NCBI RefSeq assembly: GCF_009914755.1
Contig: NC_060928.1
Strand: one strand, 5' to 3'
DNA: 64,000 bases
Source of the DNA: the human T2T-CHM13v2.0 reference genome, Homo sapiens
Below are positions 12,678 through 59,658 of this stretch, piece by piece (the stretch's first letter is position 1; every line of letters starts with the position of its first letter). The notes beneath the pieces are model-generated. The model did not search any database, was not told the origin of the DNA, and saw nothing but the letters and a program-made list of their open reading frames with translations. Position numbers and translations under genes: made by a program.

Positions 12678-12718
<41 letters not shown>

Positions 12719-13365: not shown

Positions 13366-13376
13366 TAATCCAATCA
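13366..13376 (+). promoter_or_regulatory. DUX4-type double-homeodomain motif TAATCCAATCA (copy 1)
   Basis: Exact match to the TAAYYBAATCA consensus, ~525 bp upstream of the predicted TSS. Confidence 0.55.
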
Positions 13377-13439
13377 TCTAATTAAGATTCCAGTTGTGCT
13401 CATCTGTTTTAAAATTCCGTTTGGGTAAATTCTTTTATT

Positions 13440-13915
13440 CAGACTGAGAATGGCAAAGCCTCAACCCCAATTTCCAGGGAGGGTTGAGAGCCTCAGGTGG
13501 AGTTGATCACCAATAGCCTATGGTTTAACCCATCATGCCTATAGAATGAGGTCTCCATAAAAACCCAAAAGGACTGGGTTCAGAGAGGTTCTGGATAACA
13601 CTTCCTGGAAGGTAGTGCGCCCCTCCCCACATGCCGGGCCCCACATTTATTTCTGAACTTTTTGCAATGTCCGCTAAAATACAACGGCAAATGTAAGTGT
13701 TTCCCTGAGTGCCGTGAGCTCTTCCAGCAAATGAATGCAACTGAATCTGGGAGTGGTGGCAACCTGATTTATAGCCAGTTGCTGAGAAGCACAGGTAAAA
13801 CAACGTAGGGCTTCCCGTTGTTATTAGTGTGGGAGGCCTGCCTGGCGGGACTCGGCCCTTTGGAATCTAATGCTATGTCCCGGTAGATAGCGTCACCATT
13901 GAATTAGAAGACACA
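13440..13915 (+). mobile_element. LTR fragment, MER21-like; repeated in each complete spacer
   Basis: gagttgatcaccaatagcctatggtttaacccatcatgcctatagaatgaggtctccataaaaacccaaaaggactgggttcagagag resembles MER21 as recalled from memory. Confidence 0.6.
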
Positions 13916-14089
13916 CATATGTTGAGAATAATCTTTCTGGTCATTTGCTGCATGTCTTATTTACAATATGTAATCAAATTCTTTATCCTGACCTTATGGC
14001 ACCTGGGTTGAGAACCATGATTTGAACCAAACATTGGTCTGTCACTTTCTGAGTTTGAAACTTTATTTTGCCTTTAGCGTTTTGCTATT

Positions 14090-14392
14090 GCTTTTTCGTT
14101 TTCTTTTGTTTCGTTTCGTTTCTAAGTTCTGGGGTGTATGTGCAGGATGGGCAGATTTGTTACTAAGGTAAACGTGTGCCATGGTGGTTTGCTGCACCTG
14201 TCAACCCATCACCTAGGTATTAAGCCAAGCATGCAGTAGCTGTTTTCCTTAAGGCTCCGCCTCCCGAAAGGCCCCAGTGTGTGTTGTTCCCCTTCCTGTG
14301 TCCATGTGATCTCATTCTTCAGCTCCCATTATAAGTGAGAATGTGGCGTTTGGTTTTCTTTCCCTGGATTAGTTTGCTGAGGATAATGACCA
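14090..14392 (-). mobile_element. L1PA 3'-end fragment with decayed A-tail; repeated in each complete spacer
   Basis: gtaaacgtgtgccatggtggtttgctgcacc..aacccatcacctaggtattaagc is a typical L1PA 3' UTR end. Confidence 0.85.
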
Positions 14393-15129
14393 CACGTCAC
14401 CTCTGTTTTTGTTTTTTAGTATAGAGTAGCATTTTATTGAATAAGATTTGCTCACAGAAAAATAGGCTTAAATCTACAATGAATGCCAGACTCTACAGCA
14501 GAAAGCAATTTTCTCACTTTTCCACACACAATGGTTCCTACTAAGTGAAAAAAAGCCATAAAATTTCATTCACAAATGTACTAATCTGTCTCAAAACATC
14601 TCACATAATCATGCACTGCACTAAAGCCATTAGATCAGTTCTTCAGTGAGGTTAAAGAAGTATCCCTCTAATAACTGACTTTTATAATGCTATCAATATC
14701 CACTCCCAATCAGTATGCCATTGTTAATGGTGTACAGCATTACTGTATACAATGGAATTGATGACACCCATATCCACGGACAAACCGTGACTTATGATGG
14801 TTTGATTCATGATTTTTCAACGTTATGATGGGTTTATTGGAATATGAGATGCGGTTCTGAGTTACACTGGGTTTATGAGTATGCGACCCTATACTCCAGA
14901 AACAGCTGTATAAGGAAAAACAGGTGTACCTAATAAAAATATGCTTAGTGACTTGGGATAAACCAATAGATGTTCACAACTGATGGAGAGCCGTGAAAGA
15001 GAGATAGCGGTAAATAGTTACAATAACACAATTTTCCTGCACCTGTCGAGGATTTCCCCAAAAAAACGCAGAATGTGTGATGCACCTAAGGCATATGAAA
15101 GAGAGAGGGCAGAAGGAGTAAGAGAGTAA

Positions 15130-15225
15130 TAGGAGGAAGGAAGGAAGGAAGGAAAGAAGGAAGGTAGGAAGGAAGGAAGGAAGGAAGGAAGGAAGGAAGG
15201 AAGGAAAGAAGGACGAAAGGAAGGA
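15130..15225 (+). repeat. (GGAA)n microsatellite; one per spacer (also ~22170, 28325, 32375, 38670, 44950, 51100, 57110)
   Basis: Visible ggaa or ttcc runs. Confidence 0.9.
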
Positions 15226-15279
15226 TAAAACACCCGGTGTTACTAAAACCCCCCAAAAATATGGTTTTCCCCTGTGGGT

Positions 15280-15620
15280 AAGCCTACAATGTGGATGAAT
15301 CTTGAAAATATTGTGCTACGTGTTATGTCAGTCATAACAGCTCACCTATTGTGCAATTCTGTTTATAGGACATGTCCACAATATGGAAATCTATGCATAT
15401 GGGGTTGATCGCACTAGGTAGTTGCTACCTAGGGCTGAGGGTCAGGGAGAGGGTTTGAGACAGAATGAGGAGTGACTAATGCCTACAGGGTTTTTCTCTG
15501 GTCGGGGGTGATAAGACGTTCTACAACGGATTGCTAATTAAAATTGAATGTGCACAACCACTGGTATACTAAAAGCCACTCAATTCATGACTTTTAATGG
15601 GGGAATCTTATGTGGCGCAC
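15280..15620 (+). mobile_element. Old L1M 3'-UTR fragment, antisense to the ORF; repeated in each unit and truncated at 9431-9600
   Basis: gaggagtgactaatg..cagggtttttctctggtcgggggtgataaga..gtatactaaaagccact resembles L1MB/ME 3' ends. Confidence 0.6.
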
Positions 15621-15823
15621 TCTCATGGAGACCACGGCAGACATAGTGAGAGAGAAAAAGGTGAGTAAATATCTGAAACGGAGGCAGAAACAGAGAGAAT
15701 GAAAAGCCCTGTGAATGGAAGGGAGAGCGAAAAGGGAAAATGGTCCATTTACAAATGACAGATGTGAAACTGGGGTTCACATCAACAGTGTCACTGCCAG
15801 GAAGGAGGGTGATGCTAGCCATG

Positions 15824-18800
15824 TCACCGGTAGTGTGTCCCGCAGGGACGCCGACTTGCTGGAGCGTCTTGCCAGCATGGGCTCTGGCAGCCACGTGGGC
15901 CAGCAGGAGGGTCCCGCTGCACAGCTGTGGGGTGAGGATAGACTGGGTGGTGATATCGGAAATGACAGGGGCCTCTTCTGCTGGCAAGAGTGTGACAGTA
16001 GCAAGTAGGTGGACAGGCCTGCGTGTGAGGACGGAATGCAGGAGCGGGTCTTGTGCGGCTGGGTGTGGGGCCCTCACGGGAACCGTGGAGTAATGGCCAG
16101 GTAACTGCGTCATGTGGGCTACTAGACTGGCCAGGGCTTCGTGCTGAAGGACAATAACGGGGAGTAGCTGTCAGGCCCTCGGAGTGTCTGAGTGTAAGTG
16201 GAGATGGGTTTGGGGTCACTGAGGGATGCGTGGGAGCCATCCCTGTATAGGTACAGGTCATAGGGAGATAGTCTCGTGTGGCCTGTGAGTTTCTAGGGTT
16301 ATCCTGGGTGCCTGGGGCTGACTGTGGCAGAAATCTGGGGAAGGCGGGAGAGAAGCTGGGAGACCCAGGAGAGTCCCTGAAGGCAGGGGGTGAAGAGGTG
16401 AAAGAAATGGTGGAGGGTTGCAGTAAGGTCCGTGAGTTTGTAGGTGATTCCTGGGTGCGGGAAGCTGACTCCAGGTGAAATCTGGAGATGTTTGGAGAGT
16501 AGCTGAGAGAGACAGAAGAGTCCCTGAGGGCTGGGGGTGAGAACATGAGGGAGACTGGGGTGTAAGTCAGTGAAATTCGTGAGTTCGGTGGTGTATCGTG
16601 GGTGCCTGGAACTGACTCCAGCTGGAATCTAGAGAAGTTTTGAGAGTAGCTGAAAGAGACACGAGAGTCCCTGTGGGCTGAGGGCAAAGACCTGAGAGAG
16701 ACCAGGGAGGACTTCAGTGAAGTCTGTGAGTCCGTAGGTGATTCTGGAGTGTGGGAGGCTGACTCCCGCTGAAATCTGGGCGTGGTGGGGGAGTAGCTGG
16801 GACAGACAGGAGAGTCCCAGGGGGCTGGGGCTGAAGACATGAGAGAGACTGGGGAGTAACTCAGTGAAACTGCTGAGTTTGTAGGTGATACATGGGTGCC
16901 TGGGACTGACGCCCGCCGAAATCTGGGCATGGTTGGAGAGTAGCTGCGACACACAGGAGAGTCCCTGAGGGTTGAAGATAAAGACGTGCTAGAGACTGAG
17001 GTGTAACTGAGTGAAATAGGTGAGTTTGGTGGTGATTCCGGGGTGCCTGGAACTGACTCCAGCTGCAATGTGGGCGTGGTTGGAGAGTAGCTGGGACAGA
17101 TGGGAGAGTCCCTGAGGGATGGTGAAGACATGAGAGAGACTGGGGAGTAACGCAGTGAAATTGGTGAGTTTGGTGGTGATTTCTGGGTGCCTGCAACGGA
17201 CTCCCACTGAAGTGTGGGCGTGTTTGGAGAGTAGCTGGGACAGACAGGCGAGTCCCTGAGGGTTGGAGATAAAGACGTGCTAGAGACTGGGGAGTAACTC
17301 AGTGAAAGTGGTGGGCTTGGCGGTGATCCCTGGGTTCCTGGAACTGACCCTCGCTGAAATGTGGGCGTGGTTGGAGAGTAGCTGGGACAGACTGGAGGGT
17401 CCCTGAGGGCTGGGGGTGAAGACATGAGAGAGACCGGGGAGTAACTGAGTGAAACTGGTGAGTTTGGTGGTGACTCCGGGGTGCCTGGAACTGACTGCAG
17501 CTGAAATGTGGGCATGGTTGGAGAGTAGCTGGGACAGACAGGAGAGTCCCTGAGGGCTGGTGAAGACATGAGAGAGACTGGAGAGTAATTGAGTGAAATT
17601 GGGGAGTTTGGTGGTGATTCCTGGGTGCCTGGAACTGACTCCTGCTGAAATCTGGGCATGGTCGGAGAGTAGCTGGGACCCACAGGAGAGTCCCTGAGGG
17701 CTGGGGGTGCAGACATGAGAGAGACCGGGGAGTAACTGAGTGAAACTGGTGAGTTTGGTGGTGACACTGGGGTGCCTGGAACTGACTCCAGCTGAAATGT
17801 GGGCGTGGTTGGAGAGTAGCTGGGACAGACAGGAGAGTCCTTGAGGGCTGGGGGTGCAGACATGAGAGAGACCGGGGAGTAACTGAGTGAAACTGGTGAG
17901 TTAGGTGGTGACTCCGGGGTGCCTGGAACTGACTCCAGCTGAAATGTGGGCGTGGTTGGAGAGTAGCTGGGACAGACAGGAGAGTCCCTGAGGGTTGGAG
18001 ATAAAGACGTGCTAGAGACTGGGGAGTAATGGAGTGAAATTGGTGAGTTTGGAGGTGATTCCGGGGTGCCTGTAACTGACTCCAGATGCAAAGTGGGCGT
18101 GGTTGGAGAGTAGCTGGGACAGACGGGAGAGTCCCTGAGGGATGGTGAAGACATGAGAGAGACTGGGGAGTAACGCAGTGAAATTGGTGAGTTTGGTGGT
18201 GATTTCTGGGTGCCTGCAACGGACTCCCGCTGAAGTGTGGGCGTGTTTGGAGAGTAGCTGGGACAGTCAGGCGAGTCCCTGAGGGTTGGAGATAAAGACG
18301 TGCTAGAGACTGGGGAGTAACTCAGTGAAAGTGGTGGGCTTGGCGGTGATCCCTGGGTTCCTGGAACTGACCCGCGCTGAAATGTGGGCGTGGTTGGAGA
18401 GTAGCTGGGACAGACTAGAGGGTCCGTAAGGGCTGGGGGTGAAGACGTGAGAGAGACTGGCCAGGATCTCATTGAGGTCTGAGAGTTTGTAGGTGTTTCT
18501 GGGGTGTGGGGTACAGACTCCCGCTGAAATGTGGGCGTGGTTGGAGAGTAGCTGGGACAGACAGGAGAGTCATGGGTTGCTGGGGGTGAGCTGCTGTATG
18601 ATGGCAGTAAGAACATATGGTATATTATTGATGAATGAGGTGACTGTGAAGAATCTCCAGAGGAGGACACGGGAGAACACAATGACATGAGTGACTGTCC
18701 TGCTTGGTTAGGAAAGGGAAACGTAAAGCTGTGGAATTCTGTTGATGATGGATGTGAGAGTGGTGAAGCCCTGCGGGATGATGTAGAGTACTTCCACATC

Positions 18801-19537
18801 CCTGGTGAGGAGCTGCCCCTTGGGTCTGAGTTTCTGGGAGGGGAGAGGGAGAAGCTGGGTGAGGCAGGCATGAATCTTGAGGAGTCAGGGCTGGGGGACC
18901 GCTCATATTATCCCGAGACCTGTGATTCCCTGGGGGACTCCTGGGTGCATGGGGCTGACTCCCGCAGGAACCTGGGGATGGCTGGAGAGTAACTGGGAGC
19001 CACAGGAGAGTCCCTGAGGCCTGGGGGTGAAGAGATGAAAGACACAGGGGTGGAGCACCGCGAGGCTCGTGAGTTTGTAGGTGATTCCTGGGTGTGGGGG
19101 ACTGACTCCAGCTGAAATCTGGGGTTGTTTGGAGAGTAGCTGGGAGACACAGGAGACCCCCCGAGAGCTGGGGGTGAGCTGCTGGGTGATGGCAGTAAGA
19201 ACATGTGGTATATTATTGATGAACCTGGGGACTCTGAGGAATCCTCAGAGGAGGACACGAGAGAGCCCGATGGCTTCATTGATTGCCCATCACGGTGAGG
19301 ACAGGGAAATGGGAGCTTGTGGGATTCTGGTGATGACAGAGATGAGTGTGGTGAAGCCCTAGGGGATGGTGAATGGTAGCTCCGGATCCCTGGTGAGGAG
19401 CTTCCCCTTAAGCCTGAGATTCTGAGAGGGGAGGGGGAGAAGCTGGGTGAGGCTAGCATGGACCTTGGGGAGTCCAGGCTGGGGGACCGTTCATAAGAAG
19501 AGCCAGACAAGACCCTACTGTTCTTAGGTGCAGACAT
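15824..19537 (-). pseudogene. Copy 2: longest allele (would be 1237 aa) with in-frame nonsense E210*
   Basis: ORFs 18908-19537 (209 aa) and 15824-18871 (1015 aa) share one frame, separated by a GAA>TAA change; TATA reads AATTTAAA; DUX4 motif mutated. Confidence 0.65.
16270..19500 (-). repeat. ACRO1-type array (unit 2, expanded by ~7 monomers)
   Basis: 341 extra codons relative to the 896-aa copies. Confidence 0.8.
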
Positions 19538-19702
19538 GATTAGGAAACCTGCAGCTCCCAGGGGCCCCTACTAATTTTCTAACTCGCAGAAGGAAGGAGT
19601 GTGTGTGCGTGTGTGTGCGTGTGTGTGTGTGCGTGTGTGTGTTTCTGTGTGTGCGGTGTGAGGTATGTGCCCCTTAAGAAAATGGAAATCAACCAACCAA
19701 TG

Positions 19703-19749
<47 letters not shown>

Positions 19750-22700
19750 GATTCACTTGCCCAAGTGTTCTGTCCTGTCCTCTGAATCCGCCTCCAAGTC
19801 GCAAGACGCCGTGAGCTCCAAGTCCACGCAGAGTCCGCCAAACGCTCCGGCCGCTGATCCGCTCCGCGAAGATCTGAGTATAGGCCAGCCAGGGTGGGTT
19901 TAAATTGCCTCGGGCGCAGCCTAGCAGCAGAAAGGGCGGAGCTTCACTCCTCCTTTCCATCAGTCACCCCTAACTTTCCCAGGCTACACCTGGTAGGAAA
20001 CTGTTCTCCTGCTTTGATTTCATGCGCCAACTTTGGGACAATCTAAGAACTTCCAAGTTTTCTTGGCCAGATATATTAGGAATTGTATGCACTGAAACAC
20101 TGAAAACCAACCAGTGGTTCTGTGGTTCCCACGTTGTGGTTTCGACACCAGCAGCATCCTTGCCACAATCAAATCCCGGAGATCCACAGATCTGTGTTGC
20201 AACAAGACCTCCCCCTGACCCTGATGCATGGCAGTTTAAGAAGTCTTTCCGTGTAAGCGAAAAGACTTTGAAGAAAAGGTGGAGATATGCGTTGTATAAA
20301 CATTCTTTTGCTCTGGAACCACGTGGAGACTTGGGAGCCAGTTGGGTGGAGCATTCGTTGGATGAGGGTGCTCGGGTTCGGAATATCAAGGTGTGTGTCC
20401 AGACGATCCAATCATCTAATTAAGATTCCAGTTTTGCTCATCTGTTTTAAAATTCCGTTTGGGTAACTTCTTTTATTCAGACTGAGAATGGCAAAGCCTC
20501 AACCCCAATTTCCAGGGAGGGTTGAGAGCCTCAGGTGGAGTTGATCACCAATAGCCTATGGTTTAACCCATCATGCCTATAGAATGAGGTCTCCATAAAA
20601 ACCCAAAAGGACTGGGTTCAGAGAGCTTCTGGATAACACTTCCTGGGAGGTAGTGCGCCCCTCCCCACATGCCGGGCCCCACATTTATTTCTGAACTTTT
20701 TGCAATGTCCGCTAAAATACAACGGCAAATGTAAGTGTTTCCCTGAGTGCCGTGAGCTCTTCCAGCAAATGAATGCAACTAAATCTGGGAGTGGTGGCAA
20801 CCTGATTTATAGCCAGTTGCTGAGAAGCACAGGTAAAACAACGTAGGGCTTCCCGTTGTTACTAGTGTGGGAGGCCTGCCTGGCAGGACTCGGCCCTTTG
20901 GAATCTAATGCTATGTCCCGGTAGATAGCGTCACCATTGAATTAGAAGACACACATATGTTGAGAATAATCTTTCTGGTCATTTGCTGCATGTCTTATTT
21001 ACAATATGTAATCAAATTCCTTATCCTGACCTTATGGCACCTGGGTTGAGAACCATGATTTGAACCAAACATTGGTCTGTCACTTTCTGAGTTTGAAACT
21101 TTATTTTGCCTTTAGCGTTTTGCTACTGCTTTTTCGTTTTCTTTTGTTTCGTTTCGATTCTAAGTTGTGGGGTATATGTGCAGGATGGGCAGATTTGTTA
21201 CTAAGGTAAACGTGTGCCATGGTGGTTTGCTGCACCTGTCAACCCATCACCTAGGTATTAAGCCCAGCATGCAGTAGCTGTTTTTCTTAACGCTCTGCCT
21301 CCCGAAAGGCCCCAGTGTGTGTTGTTCCCCTTCCTGTGTCCATGTGATCTCATTTTTCAGCTCCCATTATAAGTGAGAATGTGGCGTTTGGTTTTCTTTC
21401 CCTGGATTAGTTTGCTGAGGATAATGACCACACATCACCACTGTTTTCGTTTTTTAGTATAAAGAGTAGCGTTTTATTCAATAAGATTTGCTCACAGAAA
21501 AATAATCTTAAATCTACAATGAATGCCAGACTCTACAGCAGAAAGGAATTTTCTCACTTTTCCACACACAATGGTTCCTACTAAGTGAAAAAAAGCCATA
21601 AAATTTCATTCACAAATGTACTACTCTGTCTCAAAACATCTCACATAATCATACACTGTACTAAAGCCATTAGATCAGTGCTTCAGTCAGGTTAAAGAAG
21701 TATCCCTCTAATAACTGACTTTTATAATGCTATCAATATGCACTCCCCATCAGTCTGCCATTGTTAATGGTGTACAGCATTACTGTATACAATGGAATTG
21801 ATGACACCCATATCCACGGACAAACCGTGACTTATGATGGTTTGATTCATGATTTTTCAACGTTATGATGGGTTTATTGGAATATTAGATGCGTTTCTGA
21901 GTTACACTGGGTTTATGAGTATGCGACCCTCTACTCCAGAAACAGCTGTATAAGGAAAAACATGTGTACCTAATAAAAATATGCTTAGTGACTTGCGATA
22001 CACCAATAGATGTTCACAACTGATGGATAGCCGTGAAAGAGAGATAGCGGTAAATAGTTACAATAACACAATTTTCCTGCACCTGTTGAGGATTTCCCCA
22101 AGAAAACGCAGAATGTGGGATGCACCTAAGGCATGTGAAAGTGAGAGGGCAGAAGGAGTAAGAGAGAAATAGGAGGAAGGAAGGAAGGAAGGAAAGAAGG
22201 AAGGTAGGAAGGAAGGAAGGAAGGAAGGAAAGAAGGAAGGAAGGACGGAAAGCAGGACGAAAGGAAGGAGAAAACACCCGGTGTTACTAAAACCCCCCAA
22301 AAATATGGTTTCCCCCTGTGGGTAAGCCTACAATGTGGAGGAATCTTGAAAATATTGTGCTACGTGTTATGTCAGTCATAACAGCTCACCTATTGTGCAA
22401 TTCCGTTTAAAGGAAATGTCCACAATATGGAAATCTCTGCATATGTGGTTGATCGCACTAGCTAGTTGCTACCTAGGGCTGAGGGTCAGGGAGAGGGTTT
22501 GAGACAGAATGAGGAGTGACTAATGTCTACAGGGTTTTTCTCTGGTCGGGGGTGATAAGACATTCTACAATGGATTGCGAATTAAAATTGAATGTGCACA
22601 ACCACAGGTGTACTAAAAGCCACTCAATTCATGACTTTTAATGGGGGAATCTTATGTGGCGCACTCTCATGGAGACCACGGCAGACATAGTGAGAGAGAA

Positions 22701-22931
22701 AAAGGTGAGTGAATATCTGAAACGGAGGCAGAAACAGAGAGAATGAAAAGCCCTGTGAATGGAAGGGAGAGCGAAAAGGGAAAATGGTCCTATTTCCAAA
22801 TGACAGATGTGAAACTGGGGTTCACATCAACAGTGTCACTGCCAGGAAGGAGGGTGATGCTAGCCATGTCACCGGTAGTGCGTCCCGCAGGGACGCCGAC
22901 CTGCTGGAGCGTCGTGCCAGCATGGGCTCTG

Positions 22932-41181: not shown

Positions 41182-41214
<33 letters not shown>

Positions 41215-50501: not shown

Positions 50502-53500
50502 CATGGCTAGCATCACCCTCCTTCCTGGCAGTGACACTGTTGATGTGAACCCCAGTTTCACATCTGTCATTTGTAAATAGGACCATTTCCCCTTTTCGCT
50601 CTCCCTTCCATTCACAGGGCTTTTCATTCTCTCTGTTTCTGCCTCCGTTTCAGATATTTACTCACCTTTTTCTCTCTCACTATGTCTGCCGTGGTCTCCA
50701 TGAGAGTGCGCCACATAAGATTCCCCCATTAAAAGTCATGAATTGAGTGGCTTTTAGTATACCTGTGGTTGTGCACATTCAATTTTAATTCGCAATCCAT
50801 TGTAGAACGTCTTATCACCCCCGACCAGAGAAAAACCTGTAGACATTAGTCACTCCTCATTCTGTCTCAAACCCTCTCCCTGACCCTCAGCCCTAGGTAG
50901 CAACTACCTAGTGCGACCAACCCCATATGTATAGATTTCCACATTGTGGACATTTCCTATAAACAGAATTGCACAATAGGTGAGCTGTTATGACTGACAT
51001 AACACGTAGCACAATATTTTCAAGATTCATCCACATTGTAGGCTTACACACAGGGGGAAACCATATTTTGGGGGGGGTTTGGTAACACCGGGTGTTTTAT
51101 CCTTCCTTTCGTCCTTCTTTCCTTCCTTCCTTCCTTCCTTCCTTCCTTCCTTCCTTCCTTCCTACCTTCCTTCTTTCCTTCCTTCCTTCCTTCCTCCTAT
51201 TTCTCTCTTACTCCTTCTGCCCTCTCTCTTTCATATGCCTTAGGTGCATCACACATTCTGCGTTTTTTTGGGGAAATCCTCGACAGGTGCAGGAAAATTG
51301 TGTTATTGTAACTATTTACCGCTATCTCTCTTTCACGGCTCTCCATCAGTTGTGAACATCTATTGGTTTATCCCAAGTCACTAAGCATATTTTTATTAGG
51401 TACACCTGTTTTTCCTTATACAGCTGTTTCTGGAGTATAGGGTCGCATACTCATAAACCCAGTGTAACTCAGAACCGCATCTCATATTCCAATAAACCCA
51501 TCATAACGTTGAAAAATCATGAATCAAACCATCATAAGTCACGGTTTGTCCGTGGATATGGGTGTCATCAATTCCATTGTATACAGTAATGCTGTACACC
51601 ATTAACAATGGCATACTGATTGGGAGTGGATATTGATAGCATTATAAAATTCAGTTATTAGAGGGATACTTCTTTAACCTCACTGAAGAACTGATCTAAT
51701 GGCTTTAGTGCAGTGCATGATTATGTGAGATGTTTTGAGACAGATTAGTACATTTGTGAATGACATTTTATGGCTTTTTTTCACTTAGTAGGAACCATTG
51801 TGTGTGGAAAAGTGAGAAAATTGCTTTCTGCTGTAGAGTCTGGCATTCATTGTAGATTTAAGCTTATTTTTCTGTGAGCAAATCTTATTCAATAAAATGC
51901 TACTCTTTATACTAAAAAACAAAAACAGTGGTGACGTGTGGTCATTATCCTCAGCAAACTAATCCAGGGAAAGAAAACCAAACGCCACATTCTCACTTAT
52001 AATGGGAGCTGAAGAATGAGATCACATGGACACAGGAAGAAGAACAACACACACTGGGGCCTTTCGGGAGGCGGAGCCTTAAGGAAAACAGCTACTGCAT
52101 GCTTGGCTTAATACCTAGGTGATGGGTTGACAGGTGCAGCAAACCACCATGGCACACGTTTACCTTAGTAACAAATCTGTCCATCCTGCACATATACCCC
52201 AGAACTTAGAAACGAAACGAAACAAAAGAAAACGAAAAAGCAATAGCAAAACGCTAAAGGCAAAATAAAGTTTCAAACTCAGAAAGTGACAGACCAATGT
52301 TTGGTTCAAATCATGGTTCTCAACCCAGGTGCCATAAGGTCAGGATAAACAATTTGATTACATATTGTAAATAAGACATGCAGCAAATGACCAGAAAGAT
52401 TATTCTCAACATATGTGTGTCTTCTAATTCAATGGTGACGCTATCTACCGGGACATAGCATTAGATTCCAAAGGGCCGAGTCCCGCCAGGCAGGCCTCCA
52501 ACACTAATAACAACGGGAAGCCCTACGTTGTTTTACCTGCGCTTCTCAGCAACTGGCTATAAATCAGGTTGCCACCACTCTCAGATTCAGTTGCATTCAT
52601 TTGCTGGAAGAGCTCACAGCACTCAGGGAAGCACTTACATTTGCCGTTGTATTTTAGCGGACATTGCAAAAAGTTCAGAAATAAATGTGGGGCCCGGCAT
52701 GTGGGGAGGGGCGCACTACCTTCCAGGAAGTGTTATCCAGAACCTCTCTGAACCCAGTCCTTTTGGGTTTTTATGGAGACCTCATTCTATAGGCATGATG
52801 GGTTAAACCATAGGCTATTGGTGATCAACTCCACCTGAGGCTCTCAACCCTCCCTGGAAATTGGGGTTGAGGCTTTGCCATTCTCAGTCTGAATAAAAGA
52901 ATTTACCCAAACGGAATTTTAAAACAGATGAGCACAACTGGAATCTTAATTAGATGATTGGATTATCTGGAGCCACACCTTGATATTCCGAACCCGAGCA
53001 CCCTCATCCAACGAATGCTCCACCCAACTGGCTCCCAAGTCTCCACGTGGTTCCAGAGCAAAAGAATGTTTATACAACGCATATCTCCACCTTTTGTTCA
53101 AAGTCTTTTCGCTTACACGGAAAGACTTCTTAAACTGCCATGCATCAGGGTCAGGGGGAGGTCTTGTTACAACACAGATCTGTGGATCTCCGGGGTTTGA
53201 TTGTGGCAAGGATGCTGCTGGCGTCAAAACCACAACGTGGGAACCACAGAACCACTAGTTGGTTTTCAGTGTTTCAGTGCATACAATTCCTAACATATCT
53301 GGCCCAGAAAACTTGGAAGTTCTTAAATTGTTCCAAAGGTGGCGCATGAAATCAATGTAGGAGAACAGTTTCCTAAGAGGTGTAGCCTGGGAAAGTTGGG
53401 GGTGACTGACGGAAAGGAGGAGTGAAGCTCCGCCCTTTCCGCTGCTAGGTTGCGCCCGAGGCTATTTAAACCCACCCTGGCTGGCCTGTACTCAGATCTT

Positions 53501-53821
53501 CGTGGAGCGGATCAGCGGCCGGAGCCTTTGGCGGACTCTGCGTGGACTTGGAGCTCACGGCGTCTTGCGACTTGGAGGCGGATTCAGAGGACAGGACAGA
53601 ACACTTGGGCAAGTGAATCTCTGTCTGTCTGTCTGTCTGTGTGTCTGTCTCATTGGTTGGTTGATTTCCATTTTCTTAAGGGGCACATACCTCACACCGC
53701 ACACACACAGACACACACACACGCACACACACGCACACACTCACACACACGCACACACACTCCTTCCTTCTGCGAGTTAGAAAATTAGTAGGGGCCCCTG
53801 GGAGCTGCAGGTTTCCTAATC

Positions 53822-56512
53822 ATGTCTGCACCTAAGAACAGTAGGGTCTTGTCTGGCTCTTCTTATGAACGGTCCCCCAGCCCGGACTCCCCAAGGTCCA
53901 TGCGAGCCTCACCCAGCTTCTCCTTCTCCCCTCTCAGAAACTCAGGCTTAAGGGGAAGCTCCTCACCAGGGATCCGGAGCTACCATTCACCATCCCCTAG
54001 GGCTTCACCACACTCACCTCTGTCATCACCAGAATCCCACAAGCTCCCATTTCCCTGTCCTCACCGTGATGGGCAATCAATGAAGCCATCGGGCTCTCCT
54101 CTGTCCTCCTCTGAGGATTCCTCAGAGTCCCCAGGTTCATCAATAATATACCACATGTTCTTACTGCCATCACCCAGCAGCTCACCCCCAGCTCTCGGGG
54201 GGTGTCCTGTGTCTCCCAGCTACTCTCCAAACAACCCCAGATTTCAGCTGGAGTCAGCTGCCCACACCCAGGAATCACCTACAAACTCACGAGCCTCACG
54301 GTGCTCCACCCCTGTGTCTTTCATCTCTTCACCCCCAGGCCTCAGGGACTCTCCTGTGGCTCCCAGTTACTCTCCAGCCATCCCCAGGTTCCTGCAGGAG
54401 TCAGCCCCATGCACCCAGGAGTCCCCCAGAGACTCACAGGTCTCGGGAGAATATGAGCGGTCCCCCAGCCCTGATTCCTCAAGATTCATGCCTGCCTCAC
54501 CCAGCTTCTCCCTCTCCCCTCTCAGAAACTCAGACCCAAGGGGCAACTCCTCACCAGGGATGTGGAAGTACTCTACATCATCCCACAGGGCTTCACCACT
54601 CTCACATCCATCATCAACAGAATTCCACAGCTTTACGTTTCCCTTTCCTAACCAAGCAGGACAGTCACTCATGTCATTGTGTTCTCCCGTGTCCTCCTCT
54701 GGAGATTCTTCACAGTCACCTCATTCATCAATAATATACCATATGTTCTTACTGCCATCATCCAGCAGCTCACCCCCAGCCACCCATGACTCTCCTGTCT
54801 GTCCCAGCTACTCTCCAACCACGCCCACATTTCAGCGGGAGTCTGTACCCCACACCCCAGAAACACCTACAAACTCACAGACCTCAGTGAGATCCTGGCC
54901 AGTCTCTCTCACGTCTTCACCCCCAGCCCTTACGGACCCTCCAGTCTGTCCCAGCTACTCTCCAACCACGCCCACATTTCAGCGCGGGTCAGTTCCAGGA
55001 ACCCAGGGATCACCGCCAAGCCCACCACTTTCACTGAGTTACTCCCCAGTCTCTAGCACGTCTTTATCTCCAACCCTCAGGGACTCGCCTGTCTGTCCCA
55101 GCTACTCTCCAAACACGCCCACACTTCAGTGGGAGTCCGTTGCAGGCACCCAGAAATCACCACCAAACTCACCAATTTCACTGCGTTACTCCCCAGTCTC
55201 TCTCATGTCTTCACCATCCCTCAGGGACTCTCCCATCTGTCCCAGCTACTCTCCAACCACGCCCACATTGCAGCTGGAGTCAGTTCCAGGCACCCCGGAA
55301 TCACCACCAAACTCACCAATTTCACTCAGTTACACCTCAGTCTCTAGCACGTCTTTATCTTCAACCCTCAGGGACTCTCCTGTGTGTCCCAGCTACTCTC
55401 CAACCATGCCCAGATTTCGGCGGGCGTCAGTCCCAGGCACCCATGTATCACCTACAAACTCAACAGTTTCACTGAGTTACTCCCCAGTCTCTCTCATGTC
55501 TTCACCCCCAGCCCCCTGGGACTCTCCTGTCTGTCCCAGCTACTCCCCCACCACGCCCAGATTTCAGCGGGAGTCAGCCTCCCACACTCCAGAATCACCT
55601 ACGGACTCACAGACTTCACTGAAGTCCTCCCTGGTCTCTCTCAGGTCTTTGCCCTCAGCCCACAGGGACTCTCGTGTCTCTTTCAGCTACTCTCAAAACT
55701 TCTCTAGATTCCAGCTGGAGTCAGTTCCAGGCACCCACGATACACCACCGAACTCACGAATTTCACTGACTTACACCCCAGTCTCCCTCATGTTCTCACC
55801 CCCAGCCCTCAGGGACTCTTCTGTCTCTCTCAGCTACTCTCCAAACATCTCCAGATTTCACCTGGAGTCAGCTTCCCGCACCCAGGAATCACCTACAAAC
55901 TCACGGACCTTACTGCAACCCTCCACCATTTCTTTCACCTCTTCACCCCCTGCCTTCAGGGACTCTCCTGGGTCTCCCAGCTTCTCTCCAGCCTTCCCCA
56001 GATTTCTGCCACAGTCAGCCGCAGGCACCCAGGATAACCCTAGAAACTCACAGGCCACACGAGACTATCTCCCTATGACCTGTACCTATACAGGGATGGC
56101 TCCCACGCATCCCTCAGTGACCCCAAACCCATCTCCACTTACACTCAGACACTCCGAGGGCCTGACAGCTACTCCCCGTTATTGTCCTTCAGTACGAAGC
56201 CCTGGCCAGTCTAGTAGCCCACATGACGCAGTTACCTGGCCATTACTCCACGGTTCCCGTGAGGGCCCCACACCCAGCCGCACAAGACCCGCTCCTGCAT
56301 TCCGTCCTCACACGCAGGCCTGTCCACCTACTTGCTACTGTCACACTCTTGCCAGCAGAAGAGGCCCCTGTCATTTCCGATATCACCACCCAGTCTATCC
56401 TCACCCCACAGCTGTGCAGCGGGACCCTCCTGCTGGCCCACGTGGCTGCCAGAGCCCATGCTGGCAAGACGCTCCAGCAAGTCGGCGTCCCTGCGGGACA
56501 CACTACCGGTGA
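53822..56512 (+). CDS. Putative CTD-like repeat protein, copy 8 (896 aa; mosaic of copy 5-type and copy 2-type sequence)
   Basis: Intact ORF with intact promoter motifs. Confidence 0.55.
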   Translation: MSAPKNSRVLSGSSYERSPSPDSPRSMRASPSFSFSPLRNSGLRGSSSPGIRSYHSPSPRASPHSPLSSPESHKLPFPCPHRDGQSMKPSGSPLSSSEDSSESPGSSIIYHMFLLPSPSSSPPALGGCPVSPSYSPNNPRFQLESAAHTQESPTNSRASRCSTPVSFISSPPGLRDSPVAPSYSPAIPRFLQESAPCTQESPRDSQVSGEYERSPSPDSSRFMPASPSFSLSPLRNSDPRGNSSPGMWKYSTSSHRASPLSHPSSTEFHSFTFPFPNQAGQSLMSLCSPVSSSGDSSQSPHSSIIYHMFLLPSSSSSPPATHDSPVCPSYSPTTPTFQRESVPHTPETPTNSQTSVRSWPVSLTSSPPALTDPPVCPSYSPTTPTFQRGSVPGTQGSPPSPPLSLSYSPVSSTSLSPTLRDSPVCPSYSPNTPTLQWESVAGTQKSPPNSPISLRYSPVSLMSSPSLRDSPICPSYSPTTPTLQLESVPGTPESPPNSPISLSYTSVSSTSLSSTLRDSPVCPSYSPTMPRFRRASVPGTHVSPTNSTVSLSYSPVSLMSSPPAPWDSPVCPSYSPTTPRFQRESASHTPESPTDSQTSLKSSLVSLRSLPSAHRDSRVSFSYSQNFSRFQLESVPGTHDTPPNSRISLTYTPVSLMFSPPALRDSSVSLSYSPNISRFHLESASRTQESPTNSRTLLQPSTISFTSSPPAFRDSPGSPSFSPAFPRFLPQSAAGTQDNPRNSQATRDYLPMTCTYTGMAPTHPSVTPNPSPLTLRHSEGLTATPRYCPSVRSPGQSSSPHDAVTWPLLHGSREGPTPSRTRPAPAFRPHTQACPPTCYCHTLASRRGPCHFRYHHPVYPHPTAVQRDPPAGPRGCQSPCWQDAPASRRPCGTHYR
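53860..56065 (+). repeat. ACRO1-type array (unit 8)
   Basis: 147/144-bp periodicity. Confidence 0.8.
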
Positions 56513-59500
56513 CATGGCTAGCATCACCCTCCTTCCTGGCAGTGACACTGTTGATGTGAACCCCAGTTTCACATCTGTCATTTGTAAATGGACCATTTTC
56601 CCTTTTCGCTCTCCCTTCCATTCACAGGGCTTTTCATTCTCTCTGTTTCTGCCTCCGTTTCAGATATTTACTCACCTTTTTCTCTCTCACTATGTCTGCC
56701 GTGGTCTCCATGAGAGTGCGCCACATAAGATTCCCCCATTAAAAGTCATGAATTGAGTGGCTTTTAGTATACCAGTGGTTGTGCACATTCAATTTTAATT
56801 AGCAATCCGTTGTAGAACGTCTTATCACCCCCGACCAGAGAAAAACCCTGTAGGCATTAGTCACTCCTCATTCTGTCTCAAACCCTCTCCCTGACCCTCA
56901 GCCCTAGGTAGCAACTACCTAGTGCGATCAACCCCATATGCATAGATTTCCATATTGTGGACATGTCCTATAAACAGAATTGCACAATAGGTGAGCTGTT
57001 ATGACTGACATAACACGTAGCACAATATTTTCAAGATTCATCCACATTGTAGGCTTACCCACAGGGGAAAACCATATTTTTGGGGGGTTTTAGTAACACC
57101 GGGTGTTTTATCCTTCCTTTCGTCCTTCTTTCCTTCCTTCCTTCCTTCCTTCCTTCCTTCCTTCCTTCCTACCTTCCTTCTTTCCTTCCTTCCTTCCTTC
57201 CTCCTATTACTCTCTTACTCCTTCTGCCCTCTCTCTTTCATATGCCTTAGGTGCATCACACATTCTGCGTTTTTTTGGGGAAATCCTCGACAGGTGCAGG
57301 AAAATTGTGTTATTGTAACTATTTACCGCTATCTCTCTTTCACGGCTCTCCATCAGTTGTGAACATCTATTGGTTTATCCCAAGTCACTAAGCATATTTT
57401 TATTAGGTACACCTGTTTTTCCTTATACAGCTGTTTCTGGAGTATAGGGTCGCATACTCATAAACCCAGTGTAACTCAGAACCGCATCTCATATTCCAAT
57501 AAACCCATCATAACGTTGAAAAATCATGAATCAAACCATCATAAGTCACGGTTTGTCCGTGGATATGGGTGTCATCAATTCCATTGTATACAGTAATGCT
57601 GTACACCATTAACAATGGCATACTGATTGGGAGTGGATATTGATAGCATTATAAAAGTCAGTTATTAGAGGGATACTTCTTTAACCTCACTGAAGAACTG
57701 ATCTAATGGCTTTAGTGCAGTGCATGATTATGTGAGATGTTTTGAGACAGATTAGTACATTTGTGAATGAAATTTTATGGCTTTTTTTCACTTAGTAGGA
57801 ACCATTGTGTGTGGAAAAGTGAGAAAATTGCTTTCTGCTGTAGAGTCTGGCATTCATTGTAGATTTAAGCCTATTTTTCTGTGAGCAAATCTTATTCAAT
57901 AAAATGCTACTCTATACTAAAAAACAAAAACAGAGGTGACGTGTGGTCATTATCCTCAGCAAACTAATCCAGGGAAAGAAAACCAAACGCCACATTCTCA
58001 CTTATAATGGGAGCTGAAGAATGAGATCACATGGACACAGGAAGGGGAACAACACACACTGGGGCCTTTCGGGAGGCGGAGCCTTAAGGAAAACAGCTAC
58101 TGCATGCTTGGCTTAATACCTAGGTGATGGGTTGACAGGTGCAGCAAACCACCATGGCACACGTTTACCTTAGTAACAAATCTGCCCATCCTGCACATAC
58201 ACCCCAGAACTTAGAAACGAAACGAAACAAAAGAAAACGAAAAAGCAATAGCAAAACGCTAAAGGCAAAATAAAGTTTCAAACTCAGAAAGTGACAGACC
58301 AATGTTTGGTTCAAATCATGGTTCTCAACCCAGGTGCCATAAGGTCAGGATAAAGAATTTGATTACATATTGTAAATAAGACATGCAGCAAATGACCAGA
58401 AAGATTATTCTCAACATATGTGTGTCTTCTAATTCAATGGTGACGCTATCTACCGGGACATAGCATTAGATTCCAAAGGGCCGAGTCCCGCCAGGCAGGC
58501 CTCCCACACTAATAACAACGGGAAGCCCTACGTTGTTTTACCTGTGCTTCTCAGCAACTGGCTATAAATCAGGTTGCCACCACTCCCAGATTTAGTTGCA
58601 TTCATTTGCTGGAAGAGCTCACGGCACTCAGGGAAACACTTACATTTGCCGTTGTATTTTAGCGGACATTGCAAAAAGTTCAGAAATAAATGTGGGGCCC
58701 GGCATGTGGGGAGGGGCGCACTACCTTCCAGGAAGTGTTATCCAGAACCTCTCTGAACCCAGTCCTTTTGGGTTTTTATGGAGACCTCATTCTATAGGCA
58801 TGATGGGTTAAACCATAGGCTATTGGTGATCAACTCCACCTGAGGCTCTCAACCCTCCCTGGAAATTGGGGTTGAGGCTTTGCCATTCTCAGTCTGAATA
58901 AAAGAATTTACCCAAACGGAATTTTAAAACAGATGAGCACAACTGGAATCTTAATTAGATGATTGGATTATCTGGAGCCACACCTTGATATTCCGAACCC
59001 AAGCACCCTCATCCAACGAATGCTCCACCCAACTGGCTCCCAAGTCTCCACGTGGTTCCAGAGCAAAAGAATGTTTATACAACGCATATCTCCACCTTTT
59101 CTTCAAAGTCTTTTCGCTTACACGGAAAGACTTCTTAAACTGCCATGCATCAGGGTCAGGGGGAGGTCTTGTTACAACACAGATCTGTGGATCTCCGGGG
59201 TTTGATTGTGGCAAGGATGCTGCTGGTGTCAAAAACACAACGTGGAGAACCACAGAACCACTAGTTGGTTTACAGTGTTTCAGTGCATACAATTCCTAAT
59301 ATATCTGGCCAAGAAAACTTGGAAGTTCTTAGATTGTCCCAAAGGTGGCGCATGAAATCAAAGCAGGAGAACAGTTTCCTACGCCTGGGAAAGTTGGGGG
59401 TGACTGACGGAAAGGAGGAGTGAAGCTCCACCCTTTCTGCTGCTAGGCTGCGCAGGAGGCTATTTAAACCCACCCTGGCTGGCCTGTACTCAGATCTTCG

Positions 59501-59617: not shown

Positions 59618-59658
<41 letters not shown>

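What the first reader, a model, noticed from the sequence alone, without database searches (positions are those of the whole stretch)
13366..58970. DUX4-type motif is intact in all six intact-ORF copies and lost in all three broken copies
Seen: TAATCCAATCA lies ~525-540 bp upstream of the predicted TSS at 13366, 34222, 40520, 46800, 52955 and 58960. It reads CGATCCAATCA in copy 2 (20404) and copy 3 (26559) and is deleted for copy 4. A degenerate second site (TCATCTAATTA) overlaps it. Established: DUX4 binds TAAYYBAATCA and activates cleavage-stage multicopy genes (ZSCAN4, PRAMEF, TRIM43, MBD3L). Inference: the family is a DUX4/zygotic-genome-activation target and possibly relevant to FSHD. Caveat: copies 2 and 3 share a haplotype, so the losses are about two independent events.
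Basis: partly seen in the sequence, partly recalled or inferred. Interest (0 to 1): 0.82.

Follow-up and report, generated by a model that had tools for sequence, protein, structure and literature searches.

The report
DUX4 site in ACRO macrosatellite units
The window is the known chromosome 4 array of ACRO repeat units, each carrying one textbook DUX4 binding site upstream of a gene-like promoter and long open reading frame, but the apparent link between losing that site and breaking the reading frame disappears when the rest of the genome's copies are examined.

Summary
TAATCCAATCA lies at all six stated places, CGATCCAATCA lies at 20404 and 26559, and copy 4 lacks the site. The six site-bearing copies have open frames of 896-972 aa, and the three others are broken.

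The array is the published 4p11 ACRO/ACRE macrosatellite: ~6-kb units built around 147-bp ACRO1 satellite. DUX4 induction of ACRO1 RNA and its expression in cleavage-stage embryos are already in print, so the DUX4-target reading is supported but not new.

What seems new is the likely cis element. It is a single "CC-flavour" DUX4 site about 500 bp upstream of a TATTTAAA box and a small CpG-rich patch. The same site with identical flanks occurs in 171 copies genome-wide.

The site/ORF correlation does not replicate outside the window:
- Site intact: 44 units open, 10 broken.
- Site destroyed (a 25-unit subfamily on chr15/chr21): 18 open, 5 broken.
- Fisher p = 0.76.

dN/dS of the frame is about 0.6-1.2.

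The pattern in the window rests on two site-loss events and fits neutral decay of the three inner left-arm copies. The natural allelic series (intact, CG-null, subfamily-null) gives a ready test of DUX4 dependence.

The parts
9700..62600 (.). Palindromic array of nine ~6.0-7.7-kb ACRO/ACRE macrosatellite units. Copies 1-4 have their genes on the - strand and copies 5-9 on the + strand.
   Evidence: Start-codon positions, site spacings of 6005-7663 bp, inverted repeats, and published 4p11 primers that match every unit.
13366..13376 (+). Exact DUX4 consensus site TAATCCAATCA of copy 1. It is antisense to the gene.
34222..34232 (-). Exact DUX4 site of copy 5. It also lies about 1.9 kb from the truncated promoter of copy 4, which faces it head to head.
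40520..40530 (-). Exact DUX4 site of copy 6.
   Evidence: The spacing to the copy-8 site (12435 bp) equals, within 1 bp, the spacing of two published hg19 ChIP-seq motif calls (12434 bp).
46800..46810 (-). Exact DUX4 site of copy 7.
52955..52965 (-). Exact DUX4 site of copy 8.
58960..58970 (-). Exact DUX4 site of copy 9, the inverted duplicate of copy 1.
20404..20414 (+). Null allele CGATCCAATCA of copy 2. The first TAAT is destroyed, leaving only a half-site.
   Evidence: The allele occurs only twice in the whole assembly. Half-sites and a motif with the A of the first TAAT substituted were inactive in reporter assays (Zhang 2016 PMC4730607, passages).
26559..26569 (+). Null allele CGATCCAATCA of copy 3, on the same local haplotype as copy 2.
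34730..34737 (+). TATTTAAA box of copy 5. Equivalent boxes lie at 41025, 47308, 53463 and 59461 (+) and at 12868-75 and 26055-62 (-). Copy 2 has the variant AATTTAAA at 19899-906 (-).
   Evidence: CpG o/e is 0.80-0.85 and GC 0.58-0.59 over the box and predicted start in copy 6. That this is the promoter is inferred.
32330..32480 (.). Inversion junction. Copy 4 homology ends at 32356 inside its TATA box, (GGAA)n follows, and the far upstream region of copy 5 then starts in the opposite orientation.
   Evidence: and (I10: 26149-28310 against 32481-34642).
35088..38006 (+). Open 972-aa Pro/Ser-rich ORF of copy 5, built largely of 49-codon ACRO1 repeats. Other open ORFs are 9806-12496 (-, 896 aa), 41368-44286 (972 aa), 47667-50501 (944 aa), 53822-56512 (896 aa) and 59840-62530 (896 aa).
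   Evidence: No Pfam family was found. The only PDB sequence matches are RPB1 C-terminal-domain repeats, E = 1e-7 with heavy compositional bias.
15824..19537 (-). Broken ORF of copy 2. It has GAA>TAA at codon 210 and an in-frame 1023-bp expansion of the ACRO1 array.
22932..25703 (-). Broken ORF of copy 3, with CGA>TGA at codon 28. This is the most diverged copy.
   Evidence: Copy 3 has 40 private substitutions, against 12-19 in copies 2 and 5-8.
29459..31992 (-). Broken ORF of copy 4, with a 1-bp deletion at nt 1550 and CGA>TGA at codon 844.
36036..37591 (+). Main 147-bp ACRO1 array of copy 5. The equivalent arrays in the other eight copies are 1.26-2.27 kb long.

Best explanation
The window holds the chromosome 4 (4p11) palindromic array of nine ACRO/ACRE macrosatellite units.

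**Unit anatomy.** Each unit is gene-like. It has a TATTTAAA box in a small CpG-rich patch. A predicted ~300-350-nt leader follows, with no upstream ATG, and then a 900-1000-codon Pro/Ser-rich ORF made mostly of 147-bp ACRO1 repeats.

**The site.** About 500 bp upstream of the TATA box lies one exact DUX4 site of the CC flavour. It is a fixed feature of the main ACRO subfamily genome-wide.

**Most likely function.** This site is probably the element through which DUX4 produces the already published induction of ACRO1 RNA, in DUX4-expressing muscle cells and in cleavage-stage embryos. DUX4 would bind orientation-independently, open chromatin, and drive transcription from the TATA promoter into the ACRO1 array.

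**Losses in the window.**
- In copies 2 and 3 a private TA>CG change removes the first TAAT, so the site should be dead.
- In copy 4 the inversion breakpoint removed everything upstream of the TATA box.

**The coincidence with ORF breaks.** The same three copies also carry ORF lesions. I read this as neutral decay of the inner left-arm copies and not as a functional coupling.

**Shown here:** the anatomy, the alleles, the genome-wide counts and the lack of association.
**From the literature:** DUX4 binds this 11-mer, and ACRO1 RNA is DUX4-induced.
**Inferred:** this site mediates the induction, and the TSS position.
For: **Identity as ACRO/ACRE**
- Period-147 arrays of 1.26-2.27 kb.
- Unit spacing of 6.0-7.7 kb.
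- Warburton 2008's 4p11 FISH primers match; primer bR starts at the last base of the site.
- Related units lie on chr3, 13, 14, 15, 21 and 22.

**The site is a real DUX4 sequence**
- TAATCCAATCA was EMSA-bound (PMC7701011, passage).
- All four flavours bind and activate, independent of orientation. Half-sites, and a motif with the A of the first TAAT substituted, were inactive (PMC4730607, passages).

**The site is family-wide**
- 171 copies carry it in an identical 27-nt context.
- The CG allele occurs only in the two chr4 copies.

**Induction and occupancy**
- ACRO1 RNA rises 15.8x with DUX4. ACRO1-annotated DNA itself shows 0 peaks and 1.1x ChIP reads, as expected if the site lies outside the satellite (Young 2013 Supplementary Table 2).
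- Three hg19 ChIP peaks lie at chr4:49.296-49.317 Mb. Two carry a motif call, 12434 bp apart. The copy 6 to copy 8 spacing here is 12435 bp.

**Promoter-like features**
- CpG o/e of 0.80-0.85 at the TATA box.
- 0 upstream ATGs in 8 of 8 leaders examined.

**Neutral reading of the correlation**
- Outside the window, 10 of 54 site-intact units are broken against 5 of 23 site-destroyed units (p = 0.76).
- In the chr14 array alone, 8 of 33 site-intact units carry a stop.
- dN/dS is 0.6-1.2 between the main clades and against subfamily B. The small, low-divergence comparisons scatter from about 0.5 to above 5.
- 3.1% of substitutions would create a stop. About 12-40 private changes per copy therefore predict that roughly a third of copies are broken.
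Against: - I could not map any ChIP-seq or RNA-seq reads. Placing the three hg19 peaks in this array rests on a spacing match and on an hg18-to-hg19 offset that I recalled and did not compute.
- The expression changes at those peaks are not significant (log2FC 3.21 and 1.72, FDR 0.967).
- There is only one site per unit, about 500 bp from the TATA box.
- The site shows no extra conservation. The 40 nt around it differ at 5 positions between subfamilies A and B, against ~89% identity for the whole unit.
- Subfamily B lost the site yet keeps the TATA context and long ORFs.
- The TSS is predicted only. Boots 2020 found no stable ACRO1 transcripts in HeLa cells and showed that ACRO1 RNA blocks Pol II elongation in cis.
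- Counting units naively, with the window included, broken units are somewhat commoner without the site: 8 of 26 against 10 of 60 (p = 0.16). A weak coupling cannot be excluded.
Confidence: 0.62

Rival explanations
1. **Functional coupling.** The ORF encodes a protein needed only when DUX4 drives it. Copies that lose the DUX4 site are released from selection and then pseudogenise, so site integrity predicts ORF integrity.
For: - In the window the split is 6 of 6 against 0 of 3 (Fisher p = 0.012).
- The three ORF lesions are independent events.
- The ORF frame has 0 stops in 993 codons. The other sense frames have 12 and 17, and the antisense frames 44-91.
- The frame is open in subfamilies about 6-8% apart at synonymous sites and over the first ~220 codons of old chr2 copies.
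Against: - It does not replicate outside the window: 44 open and 10 broken with the site, 18 open and 5 broken without it (p = 0.76).
- 18 of 25 site-less subfamily-B units keep open frames of 1145-1387 aa.
- dN/dS is about 1.
- Site loss in the window amounts to only two events, one of them a structural breakpoint.
- Copy 3 is simply the most diverged copy.
Confidence: 0.1
2. **Another factor uses the site.** The site works, but for another paired-like homeodomain factor of the cleavage stage or germline. Candidates are a K50 factor reading TAATCC/GGATTA (OTX2, PITX, LEUTX class) or DUXA, instead of or alongside DUX4. The adjoining TAATTA would add a generic paired-like half-site.
For: - The 11-mer contains TAATCC and abuts TAATTA.
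- That K50 homeodomains read TAATCC, and that DUXA shares DUX4-like motifs, is recalled knowledge and comes from no call.
- The TA>CG change would destroy TAATCC as well.
Against: - The full 11-mer fits the double-homeodomain consensus, which a single-homeodomain site does not require.
- ACRO1 RNA rises on DUX4 expression alone in myoblasts.
- ChIP peaks with DUX4 motif calls appear to lie in the array.
Confidence: 0.13
3. **A bystander site.** The site is an inherited sequence carried along by repeat amplification, with no regulatory role. ACRO1 RNA rises after DUX4 expression indirectly, through general derepression of pericentromeric and acrocentric heterochromatin (as for HSATII) or through read-through from elsewhere.
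For: - The site evolves at the background rate and was lost in subfamily B and in copies 2 and 3.
- ACRO1-annotated DNA shows no ChIP enrichment (1.1x).
- The peaks' expression statistics are non-significant.
- ACRO1 is among the most hypomethylated satellites in FSHD-model cells (PMC12776069, passage).
Against: - An exact 11-mer of a proven binding sequence sits within about 0.5 kb of a TATA/CpG promoter in 171 copies.
- Old dispersed copies keep a different but still valid flavour, TAATTCAATCA.
- Motif-centred peaks appear to lie in the array.
Confidence: 0.15

Closest known systems
ACRO composite macrosatellite / ACRE (ACRO1-containing repeat element) of 4p11 and the acrocentric short arms
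   Same: - 147-bp ACRO1 arrays inside a ~6-kb unit.
- A chr4 pericentromeric array with an internal inversion.
- The published FISH primers match.
- The in-silico translation resembles the Pol II C-terminal domain.
   Different: Nothing differs in kind: this is that array. CHM13 has 9 units, where Warburton 2008 listed 8 in hg18. The DUX4 site, the TATA box and the full-length ORF are not mentioned in the passages and section I read.
Direct DUX4 target promoters of cleavage-stage multicopy genes (ZSCAN4, TRIM43, MBD3L2, PRAMEF)
   Same: - A consensus double-homeobox site lies upstream of a promoter.
- The locus is multicopy.
- RNA is induced by DUX4 and present in cleavage-stage embryos.
   Different: - There is a single site per unit, about 500 bp from the TATA box. 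ZSCAN4 has at least three motifs (three were tested in Zhang 2016, passage).
- The product shows no amino-acid constraint (dN/dS about 1).
- RefSeq lists no gene model over these ORFs in the gene table supplied with the finding.
HSATII, the DUX4-activated pericentromeric satellite
   Same: It is a satellite-class repeat whose RNA is strongly induced by DUX4 and seen in early embryos. It is cited together with ACRO1.
   Different: - HSATII is bound within the satellite itself and rises 857x.
- ACRO1 satellite DNA has no ChIP enrichment. Its candidate site lies in the non-satellite part of a composite unit that has a discrete TATA promoter and an ORF.
D4Z4, the macrosatellite whose unit carries the DUX4 ORF
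   Same: It is a kilobase-scale tandem unit with an embedded ORF and its own promoter. It is primate-specific and has copies on chr4 and on acrocentric short arms.
   Different: - The sequence is unrelated.
- The D4Z4 ORF is a proven protein; the ACRO ORF is not.
- ACRO would lie downstream of DUX4 in the cascade and does not encode it.

Membership tests
ACRO/ACRE macrosatellite | 147-bp ACRO1 monomers in arrays of about 1.3-2.4 kb | tested here: met
   TRF finds period 147 in arrays of 1.26-2.27 kb in all nine units. The definition comes from Boots 2020, section 7.
ACRO/ACRE macrosatellite | ~6-kb higher-order unit in tandem, with an inversion in the 4p11 array | tested here: met
   Site spacings are 6005-7663 bp. 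The two arms are on opposite strands. Warburton 2008 Table 2D lists 4p11 as 6.0 kb x 8 with 'inv'.
ACRO/ACRE macrosatellite | The published 4p11 FISH primers anneal in each unit | tested here: met
   Primer bR gives 6 matches at up to 2 mismatches, only in the site-bearing units; the copy 2/3 haplotype falls outside that limit. Primer bL gives 18 matches, two per unit.
ACRO/ACRE macrosatellite | Unit also contains L1PA10, MER21B and L1MB8 fragments (Dfam) | not testable with these tools
   No repeat library was available. The feature is stated in PMC12767296 (passage).
Direct DUX4 target | Match to TAAYYBAATCA near the promoter | tested here: met
   Six exact matches, one per intact unit, about 500 bp upstream of the TATA box.
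Direct DUX4 target | DUX4 occupancy by ChIP | tested here: inconclusive
   Young 2013 Supplementary Table 1 lists three hg19 peaks at chr4:49.296-49.317 Mb. Two have motif calls 12434 bp apart, against 12435 bp between copies 6 and 8 here. No reads were remapped. Placing these peaks in the array uses a recalled liftover offset.
Direct DUX4 target | RNA induced by DUX4 expression | not tested
   Literature only. ACRO1 is 15.8x up (Young 2013 Supplementary Table 2). Three papers state the induction, citing Hendrickson 2017.
Direct DUX4 target | Induction depends on the site | not testable with these tools
   This needs reporters or paralog-resolved RNA. The natural null alleles are identified.
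Protein-coding gene | Long open frame retained across diverged copies | tested here: met
   - 6 of 9 units in the window are open.
- 44 of 54 subfamily-A units and 18 of 23 subfamily-B units elsewhere are open.
- The ORF frame has 0 stops; the other sense frames have 12 and 17.
Protein-coding gene | Purifying selection on amino acids (dN/dS well below 1) | tested here: not met
   dN/dS is 0.7-1.2 between the chr3/13/15 and chr14/21/22 clades, similar to the other two frames. It is 0.58-1.0 for A against B. It is 0.8-2.3 against the old chr2 copies. Low-divergence pairs scatter more widely.
Protein-coding gene | Known domain or family | tested here: not met
   Pfam gives 0 families at E up to 1. 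The only match is a compositional resemblance to RPB1 C-terminal-domain repeats.

The most novel reading that the evidence does not exclude
ACRO units may be real DUX4-switched, cleavage-stage protein-coding genes, present in more than 200 copies.

- They would encode a fast-evolving, disordered protein that mimics the Pol II C-terminal domain. It might act as a CTD decoy or condensate client at genome activation.
- Selection would act only on keeping the frame open and on dosage.
- The site-less subfamily B on chr15/chr21 would be a DUX4-independent or silenced branch.

What fits this reading:
- a TATA/CpG promoter;
- a leader free of upstream ATGs in 8 of 8 units;
- an A at -3 of the start codon;
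- a frame with no stop, while the other sense frames have 12-17;
- openness kept between subfamilies where about 3 stops would be expected in the alignable 590 codons alone (P about 0.04).
Probability: 0.15. Interest if true: 0.8.

Novelty: already known. Interest (0 to 1): 0.33.

Why it matters
ACRO is the repeat class most specific to acrocentric short arms, and its RNA marks the human 4-cell stage. How it is switched on has not been tied to a sequence element in anything my searches found.

**A testable handle.** Placing one exact DUX4 site at a fixed distance from a TATA promoter gives that handle. The genome also supplies its own controls:
- 171 intact copies.
- 2 chr4 copies with a first-half-site knockout.
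- 25 chr15/chr21 units with a second-half-site knockout.

Long-read data from DUX4-expressing cells could settle direct against indirect activation without any cloning.

**Implication for FSHD work.** ACRO RNA, which hinders Pol II in cis according to Boots 2020, may be a direct DUX4 product.

**A caution.** The negative result also matters. A striking 6-to-3 pattern inside one array vanished on replication, which is a warning for reading selection into paralog patterns within a single array.

Tried and rejected
1. **Does the site derive from the MER21B LTR?** Warburton 2008 places primer bR at the 'left side of mer21 repeat', and that primer abuts the site. However, Young 2013 labels the motif positions of the candidate peaks 'Unique', and I had no repeat library. 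The question stays open, and I do not claim LTR origin.
2. **Solitary LTR copies.** The dispersed hits with TGATTGAATTA on chr2 and chr14 turned out to be old ACRE copies, 87-92% identical across promoter and ORF.
3. **Coding constraint.** Nei-Gojobori dN/dS in all three frames showed no frame-specific constraint.
4. **Protein family.** Pfam gave nothing. The PDB sequence search gave only biased RPB1 C-terminal-domain matches.
5. **Orientation of the hg19 array relative to CHM13.**
   - With the same orientation, the motif-less third peak falls inside copy 9's ORF, with no near-site.
   - With the reverse orientation it falls at about 33144, next to TTATTCAATAA at 33152.
   - Neither mapping could be proven.
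6. **More subfamily-B DNA.** ORF status then came from search tables instead.
7. **Unavailable sources.** Hendrickson 2017 is not held. Supplements of bioRxiv preprints were not opened, so the ACRO gene figure of PMC12746033 was not seen.
8. **Not run.** I ran no large protein-database search, structure prediction or complex prediction, because the question did not turn on them.
Full report
**1. What is in the sequence**

The finding's coordinates are exact.
- TAATCCAATCA occurs six times (13366 +; 34222, 40520, 46800, 52955, 58960 -), and these are the only matches to TAAYYBAATCA in the window.
- CGATCCAATCA occurs at 20404 and 26559.

The window holds nine copies of a unit whose ORF begins MSAPKN.
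- Copies 1-4 are on the - strand and copies 5-9 on the + strand.
- The outer 9.2 kb of the two arms are 99% identical inverted repeats, so copy 1 and copy 9 are one lineage (0.12% apart).
- Six copies have open frames of 896-972 aa.
- Copy 2 has GAA>TAA at codon 210. Copy 3 has CGA>TGA at codon 28. Copy 4 has a 1-bp deletion and a later CGA>TGA.

In every copy the site is antisense to the ORF.
- It lies 848-880 bp upstream of the ATG and about 500 bp upstream of a TATTTAAA box.
- Copy 4 loses homology inside that box at 32356, where a (GGAA)n tract and the inverted upstream region of copy 5 begin. Its "deletion" is the inversion breakpoint.
- Copy 5's intact site is only about 1.9 kb from copy 4's truncated promoter.
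- The "second site" TCATCTAATTA is present but has two mismatches, including the A of the first TAAT.

**2. What the array is**

The array has been described before.
- TRF finds 147-bp repeats in 1.26-2.27-kb blocks in each unit.
- Warburton 2008 (PMC2588610, passages) lists a 4p11 array of ~6.0-kb "Acro" units with an inversion. The paper gives FISH primers, and both match the window. Primer bR starts at the last base of the DUX4 site.
- Boots 2020 (PMC7714431, section 7 and passages) names the unit ACRE and places a cluster at the chr4 pericentromere. It notes that translated ACRO1 resembles the Pol II CTD, and my PDB sequence search returns only RPB1 CTD repeats (E = 1e-7, heavy bias).
- A 2025 preprint (PMC12767296, passages) calls ACRO a 6-kb composite of ACRO1, L1PA10, MER21B and L1MB8.
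- Another preprint (PMC12746033, passage) mentions a "putative protein coding gene" in it.

**3. Is it a DUX4 target?**

- Three papers state that DUX4 induces ACRO1 and HSATII transcripts, citing Hendrickson 2017 (PMC8990217, PMC12776069, PMC11467316; passages). Hendrickson 2017 itself is not held.
- Young 2013 Supplementary Table 2 (read with its header; row) gives for ACRO1: 0 ChIP peaks, 1.1x ChIP reads and 15.8x RNA activation in DUX4-transduced myoblasts. That pattern is expected if the binding site lies outside the satellite-annotated part.
- ACRO1 RNA peaks at the 4-cell stage (Yandim 2019, abstract and passages) and rises in early embryos (Guo 2017, passage).
- ACRO1 is the most hypomethylated satellite in an FSHD cell model (PMC12776069).

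The 11-mer itself is a proven DUX4 sequence.
- It was EMSA-bound (PMC7701011).
- All four flavours bind and activate in either orientation. Half-sites, and a motif lacking the A of the first TAAT, are inactive (Zhang 2016 PMC4730607, passages).
- By those rules CGATCCAATCA should be dead, and the overlapping degenerate site should not count.

Young 2013 Supplementary Table 1 (header) lists three hg19 peaks at chr4:49,296,560-49,316,745.
- Two have a motif call, 12,434 bp apart. The copy 6 to copy 8 site spacing here is 12,435 bp, and no other pair comes within 100 bp of that value.
- I take this as suggestive occupancy, not proof.
- I could not remap reads. Placing the peaks inside the array uses a liftover offset that I recalled. 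The associated expression changes are not significant (FDR 0.967).

None of my literature searches found a paper naming this site or the TATA promoter in ACRO. For the six ACRO1+DUX4 papers I saw passages only.

**4. The site across the genome**

The window's own assembly could be searched.
- The site in its 27-nt context occurs 171 times, on chr3, 4, 13, 14, 15 and 21 among the 100 rows shown.
- With the 11-mer left free, the same flanks give 190 hits. These include about 4 expected by chance and a few unrelated places.
- The CG allele exists only in chr4 copies 2 and 3.
- Old dispersed ACRE copies on chr2, 87-92% identical to the unit, read TAATTCAATCA. This is a different but valid flavour.
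- A second subfamily (B; ~7.3-kb units, ~89% identical) reads TAATTCCGTCA, so its second half-site is destroyed. It has 25 units: 10 on chr15 and 15 on chr21.
- Two sampled 10-kb stretches of subfamily B contain no DUX4 consensus at all but keep the TATA context.
- The 40 nt around the site differ at 5 positions between A and B, against ~89% identity for the whole unit, so the site shows no special conservation.

**5. Does site state track ORF state?**

Units outside the window with the site intact and the ORF scored over its full length:
- chr14 distal array: 33 units, 25 without a stop and 8 with one.
- chr22: 7 open. chr21: 4 open. chr3: 4 open. chr13: 2 open.
- chr15: 2 open and 1 frameshifted.
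- chr22: 1 further unit with a stop at codon 289 (L030).
- Total: 44 open, 10 broken.

I dropped the following before counting:
- one array-edge unit truncated by non-homologous sequence (chr13);
- the chr14 unit at 10335, whose site I did not see;
- chr22 units whose site I had not checked;
- 20 of the 23 partial loci read, known to be open only through 504 codons and not scored over their full length elsewhere.

Subfamily B (site destroyed):
- 18 of 25 units have no stop, with open frames of 1145-1387 aa.
- 5 are broken. Two of these share a TAG and may be one event.
- 2 were not scored.

Fisher tests:

| Set | Site intact (open / broken) | Site absent (open / broken) | p |
|---|---|---|---|
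| Outside the window | 44 / 10 | 18 / 5 | 0.76 |
| Window only | 6 / 0 | 0 / 3 | 0.012 |
| Pooled | 50 / 10 | 18 / 8 | 0.16 |

These counts treat units as independent, which they are not, and they come from one genome.

**6. Why the window shows the pattern**

- About 3.1% of mutation-weighted substitutions in the frame would create a stop.
- Copies carry 12-40 private substitutions in a comparable 3.2-kb stretch. Copy 3 has by far the most (40) and copy 2 has 19.
- Neutral decay from an open ancestor therefore predicts that about a third of copies are broken, as seen here (3 of 9) and, more weakly, elsewhere (about 20%).
- Site loss amounts to two events: one small haplotype shared by copies 2 and 3, and one breakpoint.
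- A reader scanning nine copies for patterns will sometimes see such a coincidence.

**7. Is the ORF a gene?**

Points for:
- A CpG-rich patch at the TATA box (o/e 0.80-0.85).
- A 297-349-nt predicted leader with no ATG in 8 of 8 units, from subfamilies A and B and an old chr2 copy. There is an A at -3.
- 0 stops in 993 codons, against 12 and 17 in the other sense frames and 44-91 in the antisense frames.
- Openness across subfamilies. In the 590 alignable unique codons, A and B differ by about 100 substitutions, which predicts about 3 stops (P about 0.04). Extending this to the whole ORF is extrapolation.

Points against:
- dN/dS is 0.7-1.2 between the chr3/13/15 and chr14/21/22 clades, no lower than in the other two frames.
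- dN/dS is 0.58-1.0 for A against B and 0.8-2.3 against the old chr2 copies.
- No Pfam family was found.
- About 20% of units carry lesions whatever their promoter state.
- The gene table supplied with the finding has no model over these ORFs.
- Boots 2020 found no stable ACRO1 RNA in HeLa cells and showed that ACRO1 RNA blocks elongation in cis.

I leave coding status open, at about 15-25%.

**8. Verdict**

- The identity of the locus and its DUX4/cleavage-stage link are already known.
- The site as the responsible element is a reasonable and apparently unpublished assignment, at about 60%.
- The site/ORF coupling is not supported.
- The most useful product is the natural allelic series for a direct test.

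Noticed in passing
G000 chr15:90.9-155 kb and chr21:106-210 kb (loci L048, L049): A second ACRO subfamily has ~7.3-kb units, about 89% identical to the chr4 units. Its DUX4 site is destroyed (TAATTCCGTCA), but the TATA context is kept and the ORFs are even longer (open frames of 1145-1387 aa in the 18 stop-free units; up to 1641 aa listed elsewhere in the chr21 array). It has 25 units.
   Followed up: partly
locus L046 (G000 chr2:161,737,500-161,740,500): An old dispersed ACRE copy, 92% identical, has the same promoter and ATG, and its ORF runs straight from the N-terminal part into the C-terminal part with no long ACRO1 array. It could be a pre-expansion progenitor or a collapsed copy. Its site is the TC flavour, TAATTCAATCA.
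   Followed up: partly
window 20404-20405 and L048 (site context): Both independent site-killing changes are adjacent double substitutions that create a CpG: TA>CG in chr4 copies 2 and 3, and TT>CG in subfamily B relative to the old chr2 state. In copies 2 and 3 a second change, GC>CA, lies 8-9 bp further on, which suggests a complex event or a short conversion tract.
   Followed up: no
window 8336-17560 and 54776-64000: The outer arms of the palindrome are 99% identical over 9.2 kb. They continue into GC-rich 195-220-bp tandem repeats (6662-9317 and 63019-63805). The first exon of the RefSeq 'IF-2-like' pseudogene model (9735-10095 and 62241-62601) overlaps the 3' end of the copy 1 and copy 9 ORFs on the same strand.
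   Followed up: no
window 16304-18571 (copy 2): Copy 2's ACRO1 array carries an in-frame 1023-bp expansion. ORF length varies in whole 49-codon steps among units: 896, 944/945, 972, 993 and 1042 aa in subfamily A.
   Followed up: partly
window 19899-19906 and chr14 units (L024-L027, L036/L037): The TATA variant AATTTAAA of chr4 copy 2 is shared with a subset of chr14 units. It is therefore an old polymorphism or a conversion product, not a private lesion.
   Followed up: no
window ~33144-33162 (between copies 4 and 5): If the hg19 array is inverted relative to CHM13, the strongest of the three published DUX4 ChIP peaks (height 207, no motif call) falls here. That is next to a 2-mismatch site, TTATTCAATAA, at 33152, in the only non-repeated stretch of the array.
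   Followed up: partly
window 34760-35087 and equivalents: The predicted leader contains (TCTG)n and (CA)n microsatellites whose lengths differ among copies, yet it has no upstream ATG in any of the 8 units examined.
   Followed up: partly
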